From assembly GCA_019322475.1 (NCBI GenBank), contig JAHWIN010000011.1:495-64494 (forward strand): a stretch of 64,000 nt of DNA, in the 5' to 3' direction. This DNA comes from Candidatus Woesearchaeota archaeon (GTDB lineage Archaea > Nanobdellota > Nanobdellia > Woesearchaeales > JACPBV01). The notes under the pieces were generated by a model. That model ran no database searches, was not told where the DNA came from, and worked only from the letters and a program-made list of their open reading frames with translations. Positions 18,519-63,423 of the stretch are shown here, piece after piece (the first letter of the stretch is position 1; every line of letters begins with the position of its first letter). Both the position numbers and the translations under genes were made by a program.

Positions 18519-19121
18519 TTACTCCTCTGTAAAATCCTCGATATTCTCTTTGAATTCGCTGTCCTTTTTTATTATTCCTCTTCCTTTCAGGTATTCCCTT
18601 GCAAGTATATAGAATATCAGGCCAAGGCTTTTCTTCCCCTTGTTGTTGCACGGAACGACTAAGTCTATATTGTTTGACTGGTTGTTAGTATCGCACAATG
18701 CTACGATAGGGATCCCTATCTTGTTTCCGTCTATTATTGCATTCCTGTCAGGCCATGAATCTGTGGCAAAAAGTATCTTGGATTCGGAATATATGTCCAA
18801 TGCAGGATTTGTAAGCATCCCTGGCGGGTATCTCCCTGTTATTATCTTTATGCCTGTAGCCTTTCCAAACGCCTTTATAGATTTCCAAGCATTCTCTCTC
18901 CTGCTCACTACAACGATATCCTCCGGAGCGTATTGCGAAAGGAAATTAGCTGCTATCCTTATCCTCTCATCTATCCTGCTTAGGTTCAGTATGCTCAGCC
19001 CGTCAGGCCTAGTCTTGTAGATGAACTGTTCCATATAGCGTGTCTTGAATTTTGTTCCTATGTGGATTCCTGACTTAAGGTACTGGTCCTGAGGTATTAA
19101 AAGCTGCTTTTGTTCTGCCAT
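18519..19121 (-). CDS. rps2: ribosomal protein uS2
   Basis: 'LLIPQDQYLKSGIHIGT' and 'DLVVPCNNKGKKSLGLIFYILARE' are S2 signatures. Confidence 0.85.
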   Translation of the reverse strand: MAEQKQLLIPQDQYLKSGIHIGTKFKTRYMEQFIYKTRPDGLSILNLSRIDERIRIAANFLSQYAPEDIVVVSRRENAWKSIKAFGKATGIKIITGRYPPGMLTNPALDIYSESKILFATDSWPDRNAIIDGNKIGIPIVALCDTNNQSNNIDLVVPCNNKGKKSLGLIFYILAREYLKGRGIIKKDSEFKENIEDFTEE

Positions 19122-19243: not shown

Positions 19244-19470
19244 CGGAACTTCGTATGTATTAAGCTTAGTCGAGGTTGTTGCCAAAACGATGGGGGTCAT
19301 CAATTTGTGAGGCTCTCTTAATTGTATCTTTTAGTCGACAGGGGGGACGCCCCCTCCGGGGGATGTCGAATATCAAAGGATAGGATTAAGAGCCGAACCC
19401 GATGACCCCCGACTGAAAGGAGAGTTTTGGCAACAACCTCACAGTCGGAGCTTAATACATACGGAACTTC
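19244..19470. other. about 227-bp structured element bounded by ~45-nt imperfect inverted repeats (candidate ncRNA or MITE-like element)
   Basis: The 5' arm cggaacttcgtatgtattaagcttagtcgaggttgttgccaaaac is reverse-complemented at the 3' end. Inside is a nested GATGGGGGTCATC / GATGACCCCCGA helix and a G/C-rich core (gggggacgccccctccggggg) in an otherwise AT-rich intergenic region. Confidence 0.35.
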
Positions 19471-19535: not shown

Positions 19536-20066
19536 CTATACAGAAAAGACAGCAACATCCTCATAAACAGGCCCCTTTGGCGTCAATCTGCTCTTTACCA
19601 GCCTGAAATCCCTGATATCTATAGCCTTGCCCTTAACATCTATCTTTTTCAGGCTTCCTATAAGTTCTTCTTTTTCCGTTACAGACTTTACCCTTGCTAG
19701 TGTTATATGCGGCTTAAACTCAAAATCCTTCTTGATCTTAAGGTCCTTTAAGGCAGTTTCAACACCCTCCTGCAGCCTCATGACCTCTTCAGAAGGCTTT
19801 ACCCCTACCCATATCACCCTTATATAATCCTCGCTTGGAAAGACCCCTATCTTGTCCAGCTTAAGCTTAAACGGCCTAAAGCTTACCTTTTTAAGCCTTT
19901 TTTTGGCCTCTTCTGCCCTTTCTTCAGGCACCTTTCCAAGAAACTTTAAGGTGATGTGGAAGCTTTCTGTTTTCTTCAGTTTAGCCAGCTTATCATCTAT
20001 CTTGTTCTGTATCCCTTCCAGCTCTTTCTTTAATCCGCTAAATTCTATAGCAACAAAAAGCCTCAT
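19536..20066 (-). CDS. RNA 2',3'-cyclic phosphodiesterase / 2'-5' RNA ligase (LigT, 2H family)
   Basis: Two H-x-T-x motifs ('FHITLKFLG' and 'PHITLARV') in a ~175-aa protein. Confidence 0.8.
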   Translation of the reverse strand: MRLFVAIEFSGLKKELEGIQNKIDDKLAKLKKTESFHITLKFLGKVPEERAEEAKKRLKKVSFRPFKLKLDKIGVFPSEDYIRVIWVGVKPSEEVMRLQEGVETALKDLKIKKDFEFKPHITLARVKSVTEKEELIGSLKKIDVKGKAIDIRDFRLVKSRLTPKGPVYEDVAVFSV

Positions 20067-33540: not shown

Positions 33541-33798
33541 TCATCCAACACAACACGCGCTCTCAGGCTCATCGCAGTCAGACCAGCCCCCTTCCTTGGG
33601 AGTAATCTCATTGCCCGAATAAGGCTTGCAGCAGTAGTTCGTAGTCCCTGAAATCCTGCATACGTTTACAGAAGAGCTTTGCTCTGTCTTTTTAACATTC
33701 TCTTCAAAATTAGCCATCCAGGAAAAGATAAGCACAGCGACAATGACAAGGACTACTATAGAAAAGATAGTTGTCTTAGAAACACCTCTATTGTCCAT
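33541..33798 (-). CDS. small cysteine-containing pilin (class III signal peptide, 'CCKP' motif)
   Basis: 'NRGVSKTTIFSIVVLVIVAVLIF' prepilin-like N-terminus. The C-terminal domain has 'YCCKPYSG' and a terminal 'ACC'. Confidence 0.5.
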   Translation of the reverse strand: MDNRGVSKTTIFSIVVLVIVAVLIFSWMANFEENVKKTEQSSSVNVCRISGTTNYCCKPYSGNEITPKEGGWSDCDEPESACCVG

Positions 33799-33827
33799 TT
33801 TAAATAAAAAAAGAAAAAATAAAAAGA

Positions 33828-34223
33828 TTAGCAGTCGTTTTTATCTATGGTTGTCCATATGCATCCTGCATGTTCTGGAGATTCGCATGCTGTCCTATCA
33901 TTGCTGAAAACACCGCAGTCCTTTCCATCATCTCCATAAGTTTCAGTGCATGCCTCTGCTTTTGTAGGCTTGCAGCAGATCTCTCCTGCAGTGACGTCTG
34001 AGAATTGCCCGTATACCCTTAGGCATATAGAGCTGCACCCTTCAATCTCGCTCTTTACCAGACCGTTAGCCTCAGCGCATGTCCCTCCTTTCGTGACATC
34101 AGAGACGCCCTTGCTGAAGACCCCCATCCTGCCTGTAAATACAGCCCATAGGACCACCAGCACGATAAGGACTATAGCTGCTATTATTATCGTGTTCAGG
34201 CTCAATCCTTGTCCCTTTTTCAT
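33828..34223 (-). CDS. small cysteine-rich pilin (class III signal peptide, 'CCKP' motif)
   Basis: 'MKKGQ' followed by 'GLSLNTIIIAAIVLIVLVVLW' is a textbook archaeal prepilin N-terminus. The ectodomain has ten Cys including 'EICCKPTKAE'. Confidence 0.55.
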   Translation of the reverse strand: MKKGQGLSLNTIIIAAIVLIVLVVLWAVFTGRMGVFSKGVSDVTKGGTCAEANGLVKSEIEGCSSICLRVYGQFSDVTAGEICCKPTKAEACTETYGDDGKDCGVFSNDRTACESPEHAGCIWTTIDKNDC

Positions 34224-34324
34224 AATTATGCACCTCTTTGTTTATTCTAAATGCTGATTATACCTTATAACTATTGTATGTTATATTTAAAACTTTCGGG
34301 TCGTGCTTAAAAAACAGCATTATT

Positions 34325-34819
34325 TTAGCATATGTCTATAGACAGATAAAGTATCTTTTCACCGGAAGCGTCTATAGGTATGGGGTCTGTCTTATGCTTC
34401 TTTTCCCCCGGGCATCCTCTTTCGCTTTTCACATCGACTATTGTCGCCTCCTCCGCCCTTGCCTCAAAATCATAATTTATGTGCCATTTTTCAAGCGTTT
34501 GGTTAAGTATATCCTTCGTCATCTCATTTATATACTGGCAGGAGCTTTTCCCGCCCCTGCACATAACCTGCGGATTCTCATGATCCCTCCCGCAGTCTTT
34601 ATAGAGCTCTTTTATGCTCATCCTGTGGGTGCTGCAGTTCTCTGTAGTTGTTCCCATAAGGGTGCTTAAGATGTTGGAGGCAATCTCAGTCTGCGTATAC
34701 CCTTTTTTGTACTCAAAAGGCTCTTTTAGCATTATGAACCTGATAGCAAAAAGCATGATTATTGATATCAGTATGACTATTATAGCGAGCCCCATTATCT
34801 CCATCTGTGCTTTTTTCAT
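34325..34819 (-). CDS. pilin-like protein (class III signal peptide)
   Basis: 'MKKAQ' followed by '[19 protein letters not shown]'. The globular domain carries eight Cys. Confidence 0.5.
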
Positions 34820-34918
34820 ATTATAGCAAGCGACACAAATTTTTATACAATATACAGGTCACTTGCTTATTACTAAAAGACAAGATTTGTTCAAAAACTT
34901 TTCTTTTAGTATAATCGT

Positions 34919-35422
34919 TCACTTTTTATAAAATTCTATGGCCAGGATCCCAAAGCCGATATCCTCTGAAGTTCCGTTGAATAAGGAGACAGGTATGAAT
35001 GTTGAAAGCCTGTTCGAATAGTTTGCCATGGTGCCGTTATATAATATCCACATTTTTTTTTCTGGAAATATCTCTTCAACCCATATCCTGCTGGACTCAA
35101 AAACATCGTAATAATATATGTTGTTTTCCCTTACAGTCCCGGAAGCGGCCTCCAGCTTCATGATGTCTATGCACCCCTCTGTTATTATGTTCTCTCTGGA
35201 GCATTGAAGCTCAGGAAGGAATGAAGCCTTCTGCGCTGCCTGTATGGCCTCCAGCTGGATGTTCTCCTCCATCTCCGTCTTTGAAGACCCGCTTATGACA
35301 TTCATGTAGAAGACAAAGCCGAACATTACAAATACTATGAAGATGAAGAGTATGGCCACGGATTCGCCCATCTGTATCTGTGCTTTTTCATCCTTCATTT
35401 TTTTCAGTAGATAAGTGTGCAT
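34919..35422 (-). CDS. pilin-like protein (class III signal peptide)
   Basis: 'DEKAQ' followed by 'IQMGESVAILFIFIVFVMF'. Confidence 0.45.
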   Translation of the reverse strand: MHTYLLKKMKDEKAQIQMGESVAILFIFIVFVMFGFVFYMNVISGSSKTEMEENIQLEAIQAAQKASFLPELQCSRENIITEGCIDIMKLEAASGTVRENNIYYYDVFESSRIWVEEIFPEKKMWILYNGTMANYSNRLSTFIPVSLFNGTSEDIGFGILAIEFYKK

Positions 35423-36465
35423 GAGTGCAGCTTTGCCAGGTTGTTTGCGCTTCCCTCTTCCCCGCTTATGTCCTTTGCAGCATCCTTTATGTCATCCATA
35501 TCCTCCTGACTAGTGCCTGGAAAATCAGAAGCCATCTTTTCTGATCCTTCCTTTATGGTTTCTATGCCTGTTATTGCATGGTCATATGCAGTTGAGCAAT
35601 GGCTATTTCCTGCATATACCACTTTCATCCTGGACGACCTGTTAAGGTAAACCCTGCTTACCAGGCTTAGTTTTCTGAAAGCCTTCCTCATCACACAGTC
35701 ATACATCTCCTTGTCTTCTGCAAATATCGCCCCAAATAAGCTTTCTTCCTTTAGGTAATGGCTTTTTCCCTCTGATCTCCACTCTGCCCCGTTCTTTTCC
35801 AGAAACTCTATCGTTCCTGTAGGCTCTATAAGGCTTGAATCCTTCAATGTAGTAAGATTGGCTGCTGTTAAGCTTTCATCATCCATCCCGCTAAGCTTTT
35901 GCAGTATGGCATCAGCATTGGAATTGCCCAGCAGTATTACCTTGACCTTATAGTTGTTCTTGTCTATCAGGCTGCCAAGCTCTGCTTCTGTAGTTAATTC
36001 CTTGTTCATCTCCTTTGGCAGCTTATCATAGATCCTCTGCCCCAGCCCCTCATTGTTGTCGACTATTATATACCTTAGCTGAGGATCTGTAAGATAAAGG
36101 AAGTTGGTTGCCCTGTAAGGCACGTTCCAGTCCAGTGCCCAGGTTATCATCTCTTTGCCCTTCAATACCCCTGGAGAGAATATAACATTGCCCCTTGTCG
36201 ATTTTGGGCTCACCCCTATAAAGTACCTGTTGCACTCAAATCCTATGTCAATGTTAGGCAGGTCTATGATATTGACGGTATTCATGGAAGCCTGGGCCCC
36301 CGTAAGCAGGGACTCAAGCTTTGTGACTATGCTTCCTTCAGTCCTTACTTCAGAGAATTCCCTCTGTTTATTGACAACATTTATGAAGAATATGAATATG
36401 ACAGCCCCCGCTATAAGTATGAATATCCAGTTGAAATGTACCTCTATCATGCCTCTTTTTTCCAT
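35404..36465 (-). CDS. large pilin-like protein (class III signal peptide) at the head of the five-gene pilin sub-cluster
   Basis: 'MEKRG' followed by 'MIEVHFNWIFILIAGAVIFIFF', then a 320-aa globular domain with no nucleotide-binding motif. Confidence 0.45.
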   Translation of the reverse strand: MEKRGMIEVHFNWIFILIAGAVIFIFFINVVNKQREFSEVRTEGSIVTKLESLLTGAQASMNTVNIIDLPNIDIGFECNRYFIGVSPKSTRGNVIFSPGVLKGKEMITWALDWNVPYRATNFLYLTDPQLRYIIVDNNEGLGQRIYDKLPKEMNKELTTEAELGSLIDKNNYKVKVILLGNSNADAILQKLSGMDDESLTAANLTTLKDSSLIEPTGTIEFLEKNGAEWRSEGKSHYLKEESLFGAIFAEDKEMYDCVMRKAFRKLSLVSRVYLNRSSRMKVVYAGNSHCSTAYDHAITGIETIKEGSEKMASDFPGTSQEDMDDIKDAAKDISGEEGSANNLAKLHSCTLIY

Positions 36466-57327: not shown

Positions 57328-59544
57328 TTATATCCTATATCCAGAATCAGTTATCTCTTTTATCCTTTTTGCCTTTAAGGTTCCTATCTTTTCTACCTTC
57401 TTCAGCTCCTCTTCGCCGGCATTGACAACGCCCTTTACAGAGCCAAACTCCCTTAATAATGGCTTTGCTAATGTGGCCCCTACGCCTGGAAGGGCGCCTA
57501 TTATGTACTCCTGCCACTCGTTCAACGGCATCTCCCTTTTAGCGTTATGCATGCTGAAATCACTTCCCCCTTCCTCCTGCTCCCTTTTGGCTATTATCTT
57601 TAGGAATGCAGAGCTTTCCCTGCTGTTCTTGGTGAAGATTACAGGAACCCCATAGCTTACAGCTATTGTAGAGATCATGCCCCTTATAGAGTTGGGATGG
57701 ACATTCCTTATTGAATAGATATCCCCCTCGCCCTCTACCATGACCAAAGGCCTTTCAAAATTCTTTCGTAGCTCTTTAACCTGCTGGAGCAGCCTGCCGT
57801 CGATTATTGAATTGACAAAATCCTCTGAGGTCTTGAACTCTACCCCTATCCTGGATGAAAGCAGGTAATCAGCATTGTCCATCTTCTCAAGCTGTATCTT
57901 TGCACCAAGGTCTATGAGCTCTTTTATCACAGCAGACCCCTTCTCCCTGTGATCCACTATTATCTTTACTTTTTCATCAGGGGCAGAATATCTCTCAAGC
58001 GTGGGCTGCGAGCTTAATTTCACCCCCAGCTTTCTTTTTATCTGGTCAAGTGTCCTGTACATCCTCTTCTCCTTGTGGTGTGCAGACCACTTATATCCCA
58101 CATCCCTTGTTTCCAAAGCCATCAGTACTATAACTCTTCCGGATTCATGCCTGCCTGTCCTCCCCCTTCTTTGTATGGTCCTTATTGCAGAAGGGATAGG
58201 CTCATAGAATATGACCAAAGGGACCTTAGGTACGTCAAGGCCCTCCTCCCCTACAGATGTTGCCACAAGGACATTGAACTCCCCTTCCCTGAACTTATCT
58301 AATACATCTCTCTGCTCCTTCTGGCTTAATCCGGTTCCTTCTTTCTTGGTCTGTCCTACAAAAAGTTTCGCCTTGACCCCGGGAATTGTCCCTAGCTCAT
58401 TTACTATCCCTGCAGCATTGTCCCTGTATTGGTTAAAAACGATAAGCTTTAGGCTGTTATTTTCCTCTATCCCTTTCCTGATTATCCTCTTAAGCTCTGC
58501 AAGCTTGGGATGCATCACCTTTTCCTCAAAAAGCTTGTACAGCTTCGCCCTTGATATCCTGAAATTTATGTCGCTTACTATGTTCTTGACAGCCTTTGTC
58601 TTGCCGCTGGCTGCATCTTTTTGCAGTTTCTCAAGATAGCTGTGAAGCGCGCTTACACCCTGGGTTTCAAGAAGCTCGACAGCATGCTGTATCTTCATTA
58701 TCTCTGCCAATAAGGATATTGCCTTCCATACTACAAAATCCCTTTCTCCTGAAGCAGCCCTCCCCCTTAGCTGGGCCTGCAGCTTTAGAAGGTCTGTTTT
58801 GTTCACATACTTCAGCTCTATATCCTTCCTGTGAAGTATCCCCCATGCCTTTAGTTTTTCAACCCTTTCTTTTAGAAAAAGGGCAAGCTGCTTTTGGATA
58901 TCCTTGAACTCCTGTGGAAGCTTGACCTTTACCCAGTCTATCTTGATATCCTGCACATAAGGCTTTACATCAGGGTCATCATCAGTCCTTACCTCTATCT
59001 GCTCTATGCTCAGGTTTGTGCATATCTCTTCTATCTTCTCAATCTCAGTTCCGGGAGAAGCGGTCAATGCCAATATTCTTGGATATTTTGCCCTCTTTAC
59101 ATACTGCTTTGCCAGCCACACATAAGCGTAATCCCCGACAGCCCTGTGCGCCTCATCAACACCCAATAAGGAGACATCATCAAGCTTTATCCTCCCTGCT
59201 ATAACATCATTCTCAAGCCCCTGCGGCGTAGAGAATATTATCTTTGAGTTTTCCCATAGCTCAGCCCTTTTCTCAGGCTTGACATAGCCTGTAAAGACAG
59301 CCATCTTCTCTTCAGCGATTTCAAAATATTTCTTAAAGACCTCCAGGTACTGGTCTATAAGCGGCCTTGTCGGCCCTATAAAAAGAACCTTGCTCAAAGG
59401 ATATAATCTCATCCTATGTGCAGCAAGCATGAGGAATATGTTCGTCTTCCCCAGCCCTGTAGGAAGCACGACCAGGCTGTTCTTGGCTGCACAGCTGTTG
59501 AAGATGGTCTGCTGGTAAAGCCTGGGCTCAAAGTTTTTTATCAT
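57328..59544 (-). CDS. hef: Hef (helicase-associated fork-specific endonuclease; XPF/FANCM homologue)
   Basis: SF2 helicase 'PTGLGKT' and 'DEAHRA'. The C-terminal ERCC4 nuclease segment 'GVEFKTSEDFVNSIIDGRLLQQ' is followed by an HhH2 region. Confidence 0.8.
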   Translation of the reverse strand: MIKNFEPRLYQQTIFNSCAAKNSLVVLPTGLGKTNIFLMLAAHRMRLYPLSKVLFIGPTRPLIDQYLEVFKKYFEIAEEKMAVFTGYVKPEKRAELWENSKIIFSTPQGLENDVIAGRIKLDDVSLLGVDEAHRAVGDYAYVWLAKQYVKRAKYPRILALTASPGTEIEKIEEICTNLSIEQIEVRTDDDPDVKPYVQDIKIDWVKVKLPQEFKDIQKQLALFLKERVEKLKAWGILHRKDIELKYVNKTDLLKLQAQLRGRAASGERDFVVWKAISLLAEIMKIQHAVELLETQGVSALHSYLEKLQKDAASGKTKAVKNIVSDINFRISRAKLYKLFEEKVMHPKLAELKRIIRKGIEENNSLKLIVFNQYRDNAAGIVNELGTIPGVKAKLFVGQTKKEGTGLSQKEQRDVLDKFREGEFNVLVATSVGEEGLDVPKVPLVIFYEPIPSAIRTIQRRGRTGRHESGRVIVLMALETRDVGYKWSAHHKEKRMYRTLDQIKRKLGVKLSSQPTLERYSAPDEKVKIIVDHREKGSAVIKELIDLGAKIQLEKMDNADYLLSSRIGVEFKTSEDFVNSIIDGRLLQQVKELRKNFERPLVMVEGEGDIYSIRNVHPNSIRGMISTIAVSYGVPVIFTKNSRESSAFLKIIAKREQEEGGSDFSMHNAKREMPLNEWQEYIIGALPGVGATLAKPLLREFGSVKGVVNAGEEELKKVEKIGTLKAKRIKEITDSGYRI

Positions 59545-62176: not shown

Positions 62177-62515
62177 ATGGCGTGTGTATTTTGTTTGTAC
62201 GTTTGTATTGATTCAACAAGACTGGAGGGGATTTCAATGCTGAAGATGAAAAGGATTTCAGAAACATATGATATGAAGGTATTTACAGATACAGGGGATT
62301 ATTTCGGTGATATTGAAGAGTCTATACTTGCTACAAATAAGGTTTTCGGATGGAGGGTAAAGGCCACAAAGAACTCCTTTTTGACAAAGGTTCTTGGTTC
62401 AGCAAAAGGCGTTATAGTGCCTCACCAGTTGGTAAAGGCAATAGGTGACATCCTTATCATAAGCAAGGCAGCTGTTCCTTCTTATTCAGGTGAAGAGGGA
62501 GAAGCACATTCATGA
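62177..62515 (+). CDS. small PRC-barrel-like protein
   Basis: 'MKVFTDTGDYFGDIEESIL...GVIVPHQ' has beta-barrel-like periodicity. The true start is probably at the internal 'MLKMKR'. Confidence 0.35.
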   Translation: MACVFCLYVCIDSTRLEGISMLKMKRISETYDMKVFTDTGDYFGDIEESILATNKVFGWRVKATKNSFLTKVLGSAKGVIVPHQLVKAIGDILIISKAAVPSYSGEEGEAHS

Positions 62516-62558: not shown

Positions 62559-62663
62559 TTGAACTATCTCATCCTTAACAGCCTATCTTTATCTGTAGGG
62601 CATGTTTTCTTAGCCCTCCATTTTGCTAAAATATTTAAACTAACCCTTTCTACTTTACTGTAT

Positions 62664-62765
62664 ACGGCAGTGGTCTAGTGGCTATGATTCGAGCTTCCCA
62701 AGCTCGCTACCCGGGAGATTGCAGCCTTTCGCTGCAATCCGGGGATTCAAGTCCCGGCTGCCGTA
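62664..62765 (+). tRNA. intron-containing tRNA (anticodon arm reads CCC, i.e. Gly, with a ~28-nt insertion between the anticodon stem and T-arm)
   Basis: Acceptor ACGGCAG / CTGCCGT, extended to 10 bp by flanking TAT / ATA. D-loop AGTGG. Anticodon arm CGAGC-TTCCCAA-GCTCG. T-arm CCGGGG-ATTCAAG-TCCCGG. A 32-nt segment containing the GATTGCAGC / GCTGCAATC hairpin sits where a 4-5-nt variable loop is expected. Duplicated CCGGG at both junctions. Confidence 0.55.
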
Positions 62766-62841
62766 TACATCTTTTGATCTTGACAGGATAGGTTTTTTCA
62801 AATAGCAAATTTTATAAACAATAAGGATAAAATCAAATCCT

Positions 62842-63423
62842 ATGGCATGGACATTTTTGCACGAACTTAAGAGGAAAGCTATCCACGTTACTATACTTCT
62901 TATCATACTCCTTTATTCCCTCTTGGAAAAAAATATCTCTAAGCAGATGTCTCTATTTGTGCTTGTTTTTATCCTTTTGTTCATCCTTCTTATGGAGTAT
63001 ATAAGGCTTGAGCTTAATATAGAGATTCCTGTACTGCAGCAGATAATCAGGGCAAAGGAAGAAAGAAGGATGCATGGAGCTACATACTTCCTTTCAGCCA
63101 CCATAATCTCTCTGGCGGTCTTTGACTTCAGGATAGCGCTGGCAGCCCTTCTTATGGCTGTTTTTGGAGATATGTTTGCAGCGATAATAGGCCATAGGTT
63201 TGGGAAGACCCTGCTCTTTAAGAATAAGACGCTAAGCGGCTGCTTGGCAGAACTGGTCATAAACCTTATCGTAGGCCTGATAGTCCTGAACAACATCTAT
63301 ATAATAACCTCCATGGCATTTACAGCTACGATTGTAGAATCATTCGTCAGTGAGCTTGACGACAACCTCTTTGTCCCCTTGTTTGCAGGTTTTGTAGGGC
63401 AGCTATTGTTCTTCTTGATATGA
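62842..63423 (+). CDS. CTP-dependent polyprenol (dolichol) kinase-family membrane protein
   Basis: 'LKRKAIHV' and 'FGDMFAAIIGHRFGK' match the DolK/phytol-kinase GDxxAxxxGxxxG motif. Five or six TM helices. Confidence 0.5.
   Translation: MAWTFLHELKRKAIHVTILLIILLYSLLEKNISKQMSLFVLVFILLFILLMEYIRLELNIEIPVLQQIIRAKEERRMHGATYFLSATIISLAVFDFRIALAALLMAVFGDMFAAIIGHRFGKTLLFKNKTLSGCLAELVINLIVGLIVLNNIYIITSMAFTATIVESFVSELDDNLFVPLFAGFVGQLLFFLI

What the first reader, a model, noticed from the sequence alone, without database searches (positions are those of the whole stretch)
62664..62765. tRNA gene with a ~28-nt insertion outside the canonical 37/38 intron position, and a 10-bp extended acceptor helix
The acceptor stem, D-arm, an intact CCC anticodon arm and a T-arm (ATTCAAG loop) are all recognisable. 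However, 32 nt lie between the anticodon stem and the T-arm where 4-5 are expected. That segment contains a 9-bp hairpin (GATTGCAGC / GCTGCAATC) and a duplicated CCGGG at both junctions. The arrangement suggests a non-canonical intron in the variable/T-arm region (BHB-type), as reported for some Thermoproteales and DPANN tRNAs. The flanks TAT / ATA extend acceptor pairing to 10 bp, as in pre-tRNAs processed by the splicing endonuclease.
Basis: seen in the sequence. Interest (0 to 1): 0.55.

Follow-up and report, generated by a model that had tools for sequence, protein, structure and literature searches.

The report
tRNA-Gly gene with T-arm intron
This is a glycine tRNA gene of a Woesearchaeota (DPANN) archaeon, interrupted by a 30-base archaeal-type intron between T-arm positions 53 and 54; this kind of intron is already known, but standard tRNA finders miss the gene.

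Summary
Window 62664-62765 (+) is a real tRNA-Gly(CCC) gene in a Candidatus Woesearchaeota contig. The insertion is a 30-nt intron (62716-62745) between G53 and U54, at the T-stem/T-loop junction. It is not a 28-32-nt insert between the anticodon stem and the T-arm. Removing it gives a canonical 72-nt cloverleaf whose T-arm (CCGGG/TTCAAGT/CCCGG) and acceptor stem are identical to those of intron-less orthologues.

The exon-intron junctions form a bulge-helix-bulge motif:
- a 4-bp helix, C48-G51 paired with intron CGGG;
- a 3-nt bulge GG|A;
- a 9-bp intron hairpin;
- a 3-nt stretch GA|U.

The outer helix is essentially absent, so this is the relaxed HBh' type. A syntenic orthologue (L036) carries the same intron type with three fully compensated base-pair changes in the hairpin. 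In L036 the "CCGGG duplication" shrinks to the four bases needed for the central helix.

The extended acceptor helix exists (12 bp here) but is not conserved. Its 5' half probably lies upstream of the transcription start.

Positions 53/54 and 59/60 are documented non-canonical intron sites, including in the DPANN archaeon ARMAN-2, so this is a new member of a known kind. The more interesting by-product is that the same orthologous gene carries introns at four different positions, or none, among close relatives.

The parts
62630..62639 (+). TATA-like promoter box AATATTTAAA; TTTAAA lies at -30..-25 relative to tRNA position 1
   Evidence: The same box at the same 23-24 nt spacing to A1 occurs in orthologues L001, L009, L011, L028, L030, L040 and L043. 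Its role as a promoter, and a transcription start at about +1, are inferred from the usual archaeal TATA-to-start distance.
62664..62715 (+). 5' exon of tRNA-Gly(CCC), tRNA positions 1-53: acceptor 5' strand, D-arm, anticodon arm (anticodon CCC at 62697-62699), 4-nt variable loop, and T-stem 5' strand CCGGG (62711-62715)
   Evidence: Rfam tRNA alignment. ARAGORN calls tRNA-Gly(ccc) on the spliced sequence. Orthologues have nearly identical exons.
62710..62713 (+). Central BHB helix H, 5' strand (C48 C49 C50 G51); it pairs with 62740-62743
   Evidence: BHB scan: H is 4/4 at this register, which is the top-scoring splice-site pair in the pre-tRNA. The helix is invariant in window and L036.
62714..62716 (+). 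5' splice-site bulge G52 G53 | A; cleavage is predicted between 62715 and 62716
   Evidence: The register rule was validated on the canonical 37/38 introns of L004, L012 and L030, where the scan puts the exon 1 end at position 37. This is the only cut that yields the orthologue-like mature T-arm.
62716..62745 (+). 30-nt BHB intron AGATTGCAGCCTTTCGCTGCAATCCGGGGA, inserted at position 53/54
   Evidence: A homologous 28-nt intron sits at the same position in L036.
62717..62739 (+). Inner helix h': 9-bp hairpin GATTGCAGC / GCTGCAATC with loop CTTTC (62726-62730)
   Evidence: Three of the nine pairs change on both sides between window and L036 (G:C to A:U twice, C:G to U:A once), and 100% of cells stay paired.
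62740..62743 (+). Central BHB helix H, 3' strand (intron CGGG)
   Evidence: This is the only part of the second 'CCGGG' that is kept in L036 (TCGGGA).
62744..62746 (+). 3' splice-site triplet G A | U54; cleavage is predicted between 62745 and 62746. No outer helix closes it (only A46:U55), so the motif is the relaxed HBh' type
   Evidence: The BHB scan gives h = 1. In L036 the triplet is A A | U.
62746..62765 (+). 3' exon: T-loop TTCAAGT, T-stem 3' strand CCCGG, acceptor 3' strand CTGCCGT, discriminator A73. CCA is not encoded
   Evidence: The segment is identical to the T-loop-to-3'-end of the intron-less orthologues L009, L021 and L028.
62772..62775 (+). Short T-run (TTTT) 7 nt after the discriminator; a likely archaeal terminator signal
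   Evidence: Seen directly in the sequence. The terminator role is inferred.

Best explanation
The locus is a functional tRNA-Gly(CCC) gene of a Woesearchaeota (DPANN) archaeon. It is interrupted by a 30-nt archaeal endonuclease-type (BHB) intron at the non-canonical position 53/54.

Proposed mechanism:
1. The gene is transcribed from a TATA-like box about 27 nt upstream, probably starting at or next to A1.
2. In the precursor, the 5' strand of the T-stem (C48-G51) pairs with the intron's 3' CGGG instead of its mature partner. This forms the 4-bp central helix.
3. That helix is followed by the 3-nt bulge G52 G53|A and the 9-bp intron hairpin. The 3' cut site (G A|U54) sits at the other end of the central helix without a closing helix. 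This is the relaxed HBh' motif.
4. The tRNA splicing endonuclease (EndA) cuts after G53 and before U54, and an RtcB-type ligase joins the exons.
5. The T-stem CCGGG:CCCGG and T-loop UUCAAGU can then form, and CCA is added.

Shown: the gene, the intron boundaries, the motif, its conservation with covariation, and the archaeal host.

Inferred: actual cleavage and ligation, the enzyme type, and the transcription start.
For: - Rfam tRNA model: 38.1 bits (above the gathering score of 29) over 62664-62765, with the whole insert placed in the T-loop.
- Deleting 62716-62745 gives a 72-nt sequence that ARAGORN calls tRNA-Gly(ccc).
- Intron-less orthologues at the same syntenic locus have exactly this mature T-arm and acceptor stem: L009 (57.1 bits), L021 and L028.
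- An unbiased scan of all splice-site pairs ranks 53/54 first (H 4/4, h' 9 bp). The same scan places the canonical introns of L004, L012 and L030 at 37/38, which validates the register.
- Only 3.5e-05 of shuffled introns reach H = 4 with h' of at least 6 bp.
- L036 has the same position and architecture with a 28-nt intron. Rfam gives 39.0 bits with a 35-nt T-loop insert. There are 3 compensatory double changes in h', and H and both 3-nt elements are kept.
- The host is Woesearchaeota: the neighbouring Hef-like helicase is 100% identical to an NCBI protein of a Candidatus Woesearchaeota archaeon on a 64,661-bp contig.
- Literature: 53/54 and 59/60 are documented non-canonical intron sites (PMC4090602). 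ARMAN-2 pre-tRNA-Pro(GGG) has introns at 53/54 and 59/60 (PMC3239211). DPANN lineages, with a Woesearchaeota genome among those analysed, carry EndAs with an L3 loop that is associated with increased tRNA gene disruption (PMC5829648).
Against: - There are no RNA data, so splicing is not demonstrated.
- The 3' splice site lacks the outer helix (h = 1 bp). A strict-specificity alpha4 or alpha'2 EndA would not be expected to cut it. The EndA of this genome could not be examined, because none is encoded in the window or in the 44 loci held when the scan was run.
- Covariation rests on only two sequences.
- The thermodynamic MFE of the isolated precursor (-46.6 kcal/mol) is not the cloverleaf-plus-BHB conformer (-36.8 kcal/mol), although it does contain the H and h' core in a slightly shifted register.
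- tRNA-Gly(CCC) is a dispensable isoacceptor in many genomes, so a decaying gene cannot be excluded from this locus alone.
Confidence: 0.88

Rival explanations
1. The gene is a pseudogene or a crippled tRNA gene. On this reading the 30-nt insertion is not removed, the T-arm is destroyed, and the locus is decaying.
For: No expression data exist. ARAGORN in default mode and Rfam whole-window scans do not recognise the gene. The BHB is of the relaxed type, with h = 1 bp.
Against: The exons are intact and nearly identical to those of intron-less orthologues. The promoter box and its spacing are conserved. The insert keeps an exact BHB register. Between window and L036 its hairpin has three compensated double substitutions and no disruptive one, while loop bases drift. 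That pattern indicates selection on RNA structure, not decay.
Confidence: 0.05
2. The molecule is a class-II-like tRNA with a long variable arm. The 9-bp hairpin would be a variable arm, followed by the T-arm CGGGG/ATTCAAG/TCCCG.
For: The L036 precursor's MFE fold forms the intron hairpin followed directly by a 5-bp/7-nt hairpin (the equivalent CGGGA/AUUCAAA/UCCCG). ARAGORN -i draws the hairpin as a long variable arm.
Against: - The pseudo-T-loop AUUCAAG puts U54, U55, C56 and A58 out of register.
- One extra G would separate the T-stem from the acceptor stem.
- About 10 unpaired bases would precede the 'arm'.
- Gly is a class I tRNA, and the orthologues with identical exons have no arm at all.
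- The covariance model prefers the first CCGGG as the T-stem.
- ARAGORN's model has to delete half of the real anticodon stem as a 9-nt 'intron' and change the anticodon to UCC.
Confidence: 0.02
3. The insert is a miniature mobile-element footprint: a 20-25-bp element with 9-bp terminal inverted repeats, flanked by a 5-bp target-site duplication (CCGGG).
For: CCGGG is present on both sides, and the insert has perfect 9-bp inverted repeats.
Against: - There is no other copy of the hairpin or of the tRNA 3' end in the window. Among the loci held, only the orthologous site in L036 has the hairpin.
- In L036 the second 'repeat' is TCGGGA, so only the four bases needed for helix H survive.
- The inverted repeats change by compensated substitutions, which neutral decay of a footprint would not give.
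- 25 nt is far below any known autonomous or miniature element (established knowledge).
Confidence: 0.02

Closest known systems
[quoted passage not shown] 2011, PMC3239211)
   Same: A DPANN host and the same insertion site (53/54). Both are BHB-type introns removed, or presumed to be removed, by the splicing endonuclease. In both, the T-arm can only form after splicing.
   Different: The ARMAN-2 gene has two adjacent introns that together form a strict hBHBh' motif. Here there is a single 53/54 intron with a relaxed HBh' motif. The isoacceptor differs (Gly-CCC versus Pro-GGG). ARMAN-2 uses an epsilon2 EndA, whereas the enzyme here is unknown.
Non-canonical tRNA introns of Thermoproteales and other Crenarchaeota, at positions 20/21, 22/23, 25/26, 29/30, 30/31, 45/46, 53/54, 56/57, 59/60 and others (Marck & Grosjean 2003; Sugahara et al. 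2008; reviewed in PMC4090602)
   Same: The same class of short endonuclease-dependent introns, often with relaxed HBh' or hBH motifs. Closely related genomes differ in intron presence and position.
   Different: The host is a DPANN archaeon rather than a member of the TACK group. The Crenarchaeal (alpha-beta)2 EndA with its CSL loop is not expected here.
[quoted passage not shown]
   Same: This is the type found in most intron-bearing orthologues of the present gene (L001, L029, L037 and others). The T-stem serves as the outer helix, and U54-R57 pairs with the intron's 3' end.
   Different: The window's intron sits 6 nt further 5'. It uses C48-G51 as the central helix and has an inner helix but no outer one, so it is HBh' rather than hBH.

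Membership tests
Archaeal endonuclease-dependent (BHB) tRNA intron, non-canonical position | Removal of the insert restores a canonical cloverleaf tRNA | tested here: met
   The spliced 72-mer is called tRNA-Gly(ccc) by ARAGORN. Its T-arm and acceptor stem are identical to those of the intron-less orthologues L009, L021 and L028.
Archaeal endonuclease-dependent (BHB) tRNA intron, non-canonical position | A 4-bp central helix with both splice sites two nucleotides 3' of its strands (3-nt bulge geometry) | tested here: met
   H is CCCG:CGGG, 4/4 pairs. The bulges are GG|A and GA|U. This is the top-ranked splice-site pair in an unbiased scan whose register was validated on 37/38 introns.
Archaeal endonuclease-dependent (BHB) tRNA intron, non-canonical position | At least one flanking helix (h or h') closes a bulge; this is the relaxed HBh'/hBH definition (PMC5829648, PMC3239211) | tested here: met
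   The inner helix h' has 9 bp directly after the 5' bulge.
Archaeal endonuclease-dependent (BHB) tRNA intron, non-canonical position | The structure is maintained by selection in relatives | tested here: met
   L036 has the same site, with 3 compensatory pairs in h' and H invariant. Only two sequences are available.
Archaeal endonuclease-dependent (BHB) tRNA intron, non-canonical position | The host is an archaeon that encodes EndA and an RtcB-type ligase | tested here: inconclusive
   The host is archaeal (Woesearchaeota). No EndA was found in the window by tblastn or among the 20 ORFs put through Pfam, nor by tblastn in the 44 loci held when the scan was run (the query was verified against PDB 1a79). 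The rest of the genome is not available.
Archaeal endonuclease-dependent (BHB) tRNA intron, non-canonical position | The intron is actually excised and the exons ligated | not testable with these tools
   This needs RNA sequencing or an in vitro cleavage assay.
Strict hBHBh' motif (substrate of alpha4 / alpha'2 EndA) | An outer helix h of at least 2 bp closes the second bulge | tested here: not met
   Only A46:U55 can pair, so h = 1, in both window and L036.
Class II tRNA (long variable arm) | The extra arm lies between positions 44 and 48, is followed by a canonical T-arm, and the isotype is Leu, Ser or Tyr | tested here: not met
   The covariance model places the insert inside the T-loop. 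The alternative T-arm has an out-of-register loop and an extra base before the acceptor stem. The isotype is Gly, and the orthologues lack the arm.
Miniature transposable element with target-site duplication | Multiple dispersed copies, with the duplication conserved as a repeat | tested here: not met
   There is a single copy in the window. Among the loci held it occurs only at the orthologous site. The repeat has degenerated to CGGG in L036.

The most novel reading that the evidence does not exclude
BHB introns may be actively turning over, or even relocating, in this Woesearchaeota clade. The same syntenic tRNA-Gly(CCC) gene carries introns in the D-loop, at 37/38, at 53/54 or at 59/60, or none, among genomes whose neighbouring proteins are 77-90% identical. 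L036 and L001 have identical exons but a 53/54 and a 59/60 intron respectively, which is a shift of exactly 6 nt. The distribution does not follow the neighbour-gene trees.

This would make the clade a natural system for the unsolved question of how endonuclease-type introns are gained or moved. Candidate mechanisms include reverse splicing, allele exchange by recombination, and protection of the T-arm/acceptor integration site. It would also imply that the DPANN alpha4+L3 EndA has broad (HBh' and hBH) specificity.
Probability: 0.3. Interest if true: 0.6.

Novelty: new member of a known kind. Interest (0 to 1): 0.35.

Why it matters
Practical value: the gene is invisible to ARAGORN and to routine Rfam scans. 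Annotation of this MAG would therefore lack tRNA-Gly(CCC). "Missing" tRNAs in DPANN genomes have been attributed to exactly such disrupted genes (PMC5829648).

Biological value: a relaxed HBh' intron in a Woesearchaeote predicts a broad-specificity splicing endonuclease in a lineage reported to have alpha4-type enzymes with an L3 insert, and this prediction can be tested biochemically. The set of orthologues assembled here covers four intron positions plus intron-less alleles at one syntenic locus. It is a compact data set for studying gain, loss and possible relocation of archaeal tRNA introns.

The intron itself is not a new kind of element.

Tried and rejected
- ARAGORN in default mode on the window found no tRNA.
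- Rfam at gathering threshold and at E <= 0.1 on the whole window found nothing. The tRNA model hits only when a 301-nt region is given. This is a filter effect, not evidence of absence.
- ARAGORN -i reports tRNA-Gly(tcc) with a 9-nt 'intron' at 37/38 and a long variable arm over 62663-62766. I rejected it as a forced fit. It removes half of the real anticodon stem, shifts the acceptor stem and gives a poor T-stem.
- Lower ARAGORN thresholds give only obvious false positives inside ORFs.
- An exact-protein look-up of the neighbouring 193-aa protein found nothing on record.
- I looked for EndA in the window. Pfam on 20 ORFs and tblastn with M. jannaschii EndA (query validated) found none. The weak hit at about 34.2 kb lies in pilin-like secreted proteins. 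None of the 44 loci held at that point has one either.
- A MITE or target-site-duplication origin was tested and rejected.
- I looked by eye for sequence similarity between the 53/54 and 59/60 introns, which 'sliding' would predict, and saw none. At 30 nt and this AT content no statistical test would be meaningful.
- The Kaneta et al. supplement, which might hold per-genome Woesearchaeota tRNA tables, is not held as text.
- The L042, L038, L039 and L003 loci do not contain the tRNA in the stretch fetched.

Full report
**1. What is in the sequence**

Window 62664-62765 (+) lies in a 326-nt gap between two ORFs: 62177-62515 (PRC-barrel) and 62842-63423 (a membrane protein with a weak CTP_transf_1 match). 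ARAGORN in default mode and Rfam run over the whole window report nothing. When only 62560-62860 is searched, the Rfam tRNA model matches 62664-62765 end to end with 38.1 bits (gathering score 29, E 8.6e-07). It pairs the first CCGGG (62711-62715) with CCCGG (62753-62757) and leaves 37 nt in the T-loop, which is 7 loop bases plus 30 extra.

Deleting AGATTGCAGCCTTTCGCTGCAATCCGGGGA (62716-62745) gives a 72-nt sequence that ARAGORN calls tRNA-Gly(ccc). Its features are:
- acceptor stem ACGGCAG/CTGCCGT;
- U8;
- a D-arm with the GG of the D-loop;
- anticodon loop UUCCCAA;
- a 4-nt variable loop;
- T-stem CCGGG:CCCGG and T-loop UUCAAGU;
- discriminator A73.

C2:G71, G3:C70 and A73 fit what is established for archaeal/eukaryal glycine identity (my own knowledge, not tested here). 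CCA is not encoded.

**2. Host**

The neighbouring Hef-like helicase-nuclease (57328-59544, -) is 100% identical to an NCBI protein of a Candidatus Woesearchaeota archaeon on a 64,661-bp contig. The next 100+ hits are labelled Woesearchaeota, Nanoarchaeota or Nanoarchaeia. The window is therefore DPANN archaeal DNA with 42% G+C.

**3. The intron and its splicing motif**

I wrote a scan that scores every possible pair of splice sites for BHB geometry. It looks for a 4-bp helix H with each cut two bases 3' of an H strand, an inner helix h' and an outer helix h. On orthologues with ordinary anticodon-loop introns (L004, L012, L030) the best pair is exactly 37/38, with H 4/4, h' 4-7 and h 5-6. This validates the register.

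On the window's precursor the best pair is exon 1 ending at G53 (62715) and exon 2 starting at U54 (62746):
- H = C48C49C50G51 paired with intron CGGG (62710-62713 with 62740-62743), 4/4 pairs;
- 5' bulge G52 G53|A;
- h' = 9 bp (62717-62725 with 62731-62739), loop CUUUC;
- 3' triplet G A|U54;
- outer helix of only A46:U55.

This is the relaxed HBh' form as defined in the literature (PMC5829648, PMC3239211). With the splice sites fixed, 1.1% of shuffled introns give H = 4, 0.056% also give h' of at least 3 bp, and 0.0035% give h' of at least 6 bp.

The H plus h' core also appears, in a one-base-shifted register, in the unconstrained MFE and centroid folds. The cloverleaf-plus-BHB conformer (-36.8 kcal/mol) and a conformer with the T-stem formed (-36.5 kcal/mol) are isoenergetic. 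H uses three bases of the T-stem 5' strand, so the mature T-arm can form only after splicing.

**4. Comparative evidence**

The locus is syntenic in related metagenome contigs, with the gene order 193-aa protein | tRNA | PRC-barrel | TraB | ... | Hef. Pattern scans of the genome and metagenome collections added further orthologues.

- Intron-less alleles (L009, L021, L028) have exactly the T-arm and acceptor stem predicted for the spliced window gene, including the UUCAAGU loop. L009 scores 57.1 bits.
- L036 has Hef 80% and the 193-aa protein 83% identical to the window's. It carries a 28-nt intron at the same site: CCGGG|A AATTATAGC ATT GCTATAATT CGGG AA|TTCAAAT. Rfam gives 39.0 bits with a 35-nt T-loop insert.
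- Aligned to the window, 20 of 30 intron columns are identical. All six substitutions inside h' form three compensated pairs (G:C to A:U twice, C:G to U:A once). H and both 3-nt elements keep their geometry, and 100% of the 56 pair cells are standard pairs. Sliding the partners by 1-3 columns drops pairing to 24-39% and gives no double changes.
- With two sequences this is limited evidence. It is nonetheless the pattern expected of a selected RNA helix, not of a decaying insert.
- In L036 the second 'CCGGG' is TCGGGA. Only the four H-forming bases are kept.
- No other copy of the hairpin or of the tRNA 3' end exists in the window or in the other loci held.

**5. The extended acceptor helix**

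In the window the flanks pair for 5 more positions (TGTAT/ATACA). Across 26 distinct orthologous loci the number of extra pairs ranges from 0 to 5 and is mostly 2. Those two come from bases that are conserved for other reasons (-2A and -1T; A73 and T74).

Upstream, a TATA-like box (AATATTTAAA, 62630-62639) ends 24 nt before A1. The same box at 23-24 nt spacing occurs in L001, L009, L011, L028, L030, L040 and L043. By the usual archaeal TATA-to-start distance, transcription should begin at or within a base or two of A1, a purine after a pyrimidine. On that inference the 5' flank is not part of the RNA, and the 'helix' is a by-product of AT-rich flanks. Leaderless tRNA transcripts are known from Nanoarchaeum equitans, which lacks RNase P (PMC10100707). 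Whether that applies here is untested.

**6. Mechanism (best explanation, confidence 0.88)**

- Shown: a tRNA-Gly(CCC) gene with a 30-nt insert at 53/54; a BHB-type motif in the correct register; conservation with covariation; an archaeal host.
- Inferred: EndA cleaves after G53 and before U54, leaving 2',3'-cyclic phosphate and 5'-OH ends. An RtcB-type ligase joins the exons and may circularise the intron. CCA is then added.
- Enzyme requirement: because the motif lacks the outer helix, the enzyme should have broad specificity. Published work finds that only (alpha-beta)2 and epsilon2 enzymes with a 'specific loop' cut HBh'/hBH substrates efficiently. It also finds that many DPANN lineages have alpha4 enzymes with an L3 insert that goes with more disrupted tRNA genes; a Woesearchaeota genome was among those analysed (PMC5829648).
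- Limitation: I could not examine this genome's EndA. The window and the 44 loci held when I scanned encode none.

**7. Rivals**

- Pseudogene (0.05). This is contradicted by intact exons, a conserved promoter and compensated substitutions.
It needs an out-of-register T-loop, an extra base before the acceptor stem and, in ARAGORN's version, deletion of half the anticodon stem. The orthologues show a class I tRNA.
- Mobile-element footprint (0.02). The insert is single-copy, the 'duplication' is not conserved, and the inverted repeats covary.

**8. Comparison with what is known**

Positions 53/54 and 59/60 are listed among the standard non-canonical sites (PMC4090602). ARMAN-2, also DPANN, has a tRNA-Pro(GGG) with introns at both sites and a tRNA-Cys with a 59/60 hBH intron that is cleaved in vitro (PMC3239211). 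The window's element is therefore a new member of a known kind. It passes every defining test that could be run for 'relaxed BHB intron' and fails the test for the strict hBHBh' form.

**9. What else turned up**

- Among relatives whose neighbouring proteins are 77-90% identical, the same gene is found in several states:
  - no intron (L040, L009, L028, L010, L047);
  - a 53/54 intron (window, L036);
  - a 59/60 intron (L001, L011, L014, L023, L027, L029, L032);
  - 37/38 plus 59/60 (L030/L045, L043, L017, L025);
  - a D-loop intron plus 59/60 (L037).
- In the 59/60 introns the T-stem is the outer helix and U54-R57 pairs with the intron's 3' end. Position 57 covaries with its intron partner: A:U in six sequences and G:C in five.
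- L036 and L001 have identical exons but different intron sites.
- Single-gene NJ trees of Hef and of the 193-aa protein do not group the two 53/54 carriers. The history may be an old intron with repeated loss, allele exchange, or recurrent gain. It remains open.

**10. Verdict**

The boundaries, the T-arm assignment and the significance of the acceptor extension are wrong. The element is ordinary for its class. The intron turnover at one orthologous locus is the part worth following up.

Noticed in passing
window 19245-19470 (either strand): A rod-like hairpin of about 225 nt with near-perfect pairing lies in the gap between an rpS2-like ORF (18519-19121, -) and a LigT-like ORF. Its MFE is -112 kcal/mol, z = -9.5 (+ strand) and -9.8 (- strand). 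No Rfam family matches; the best is c-di-AMP at 14.7 bits, which is noise. There is no clean BHB. Its nature is unknown.
   Followed up: partly
window 19536-20066 (-): This ORF encodes a LigT-like 2',5' RNA ligase / 2H phosphoesterase (PF02834, E 1e-33), an RNA-end-processing enzyme family. No link to the tRNA intron was tested.
   Followed up: no
window 62630-62639, and the same position in L001, L009, L011, L028, L030, L040, L043: A conserved TATA-like box AATATTTAAA ends 23-24 nt upstream of tRNA position 1, with a conserved -2A/-1T. This suggests transcription starts at about A1, giving a leaderless or nearly leaderless pre-tRNA as in Nanoarchaeum equitans. Other orthologues have the box 26-30 nt upstream.
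   Followed up: partly
L001, L030/L045, L037, L043, L011, L032, L023, L017, L014/L022, L027/L019, L029, L025 (tRNA-Gly(CCC) orthologues): Most intron-bearing orthologues have their intron at 59/60 in the T-loop. The introns range from 12 nt to about 70 nt. The T-stem serves as the outer helix and U54-R57 pairs with the intron's 3' YGAA (or YGCA). Position 57 covaries with its intron partner, A:U in six sequences and G:C in five. Several genes have a second intron at 37/38 or in the D-loop.
   Followed up: partly
window, L036, L001, L037, L040, L043, L045: Intron position at this one syntenic locus does not track the similarity of the neighbouring Hef and 193-aa proteins. The window is the most divergent lineage. 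L036, the other 53/54 carrier, groups with 59/60-bearing and intron-less genomes. L036 and L001 have identical exons.
   Followed up: partly
L047, minus strand, within about 140 nt of the contig end (downstream of its intron-less tRNA-Gly(CCC)): A second copy of the tRNA 3' end (CCCGGCTGCCGTAT) lies about 130 nt downstream of the gene. It looks like an att-type direct repeat left by an element that integrated into the T-arm/acceptor region.
   Followed up: no
window 1-64000: This 64-kb window includes a ribosomal-protein operon, yet no tRNA or other RNA family is reported by ARAGORN or by whole-window Rfam scans. The one tRNA found needed a local search, so other disrupted RNA genes could be hidden in the same way. 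G+C-rich islands were listed but only two were inspected.
   Followed up: partly
window 33541-36465 (-): A run of small ORFs with N-terminal hydrophobic segments and Cys-rich C-termini, resembling pilin or secreted proteins. Two of them (34325-34819 and 34919-35422) were put through Pfam and matched nothing. They were seen while chasing a spurious EndA tblastn hit.
   Followed up: no
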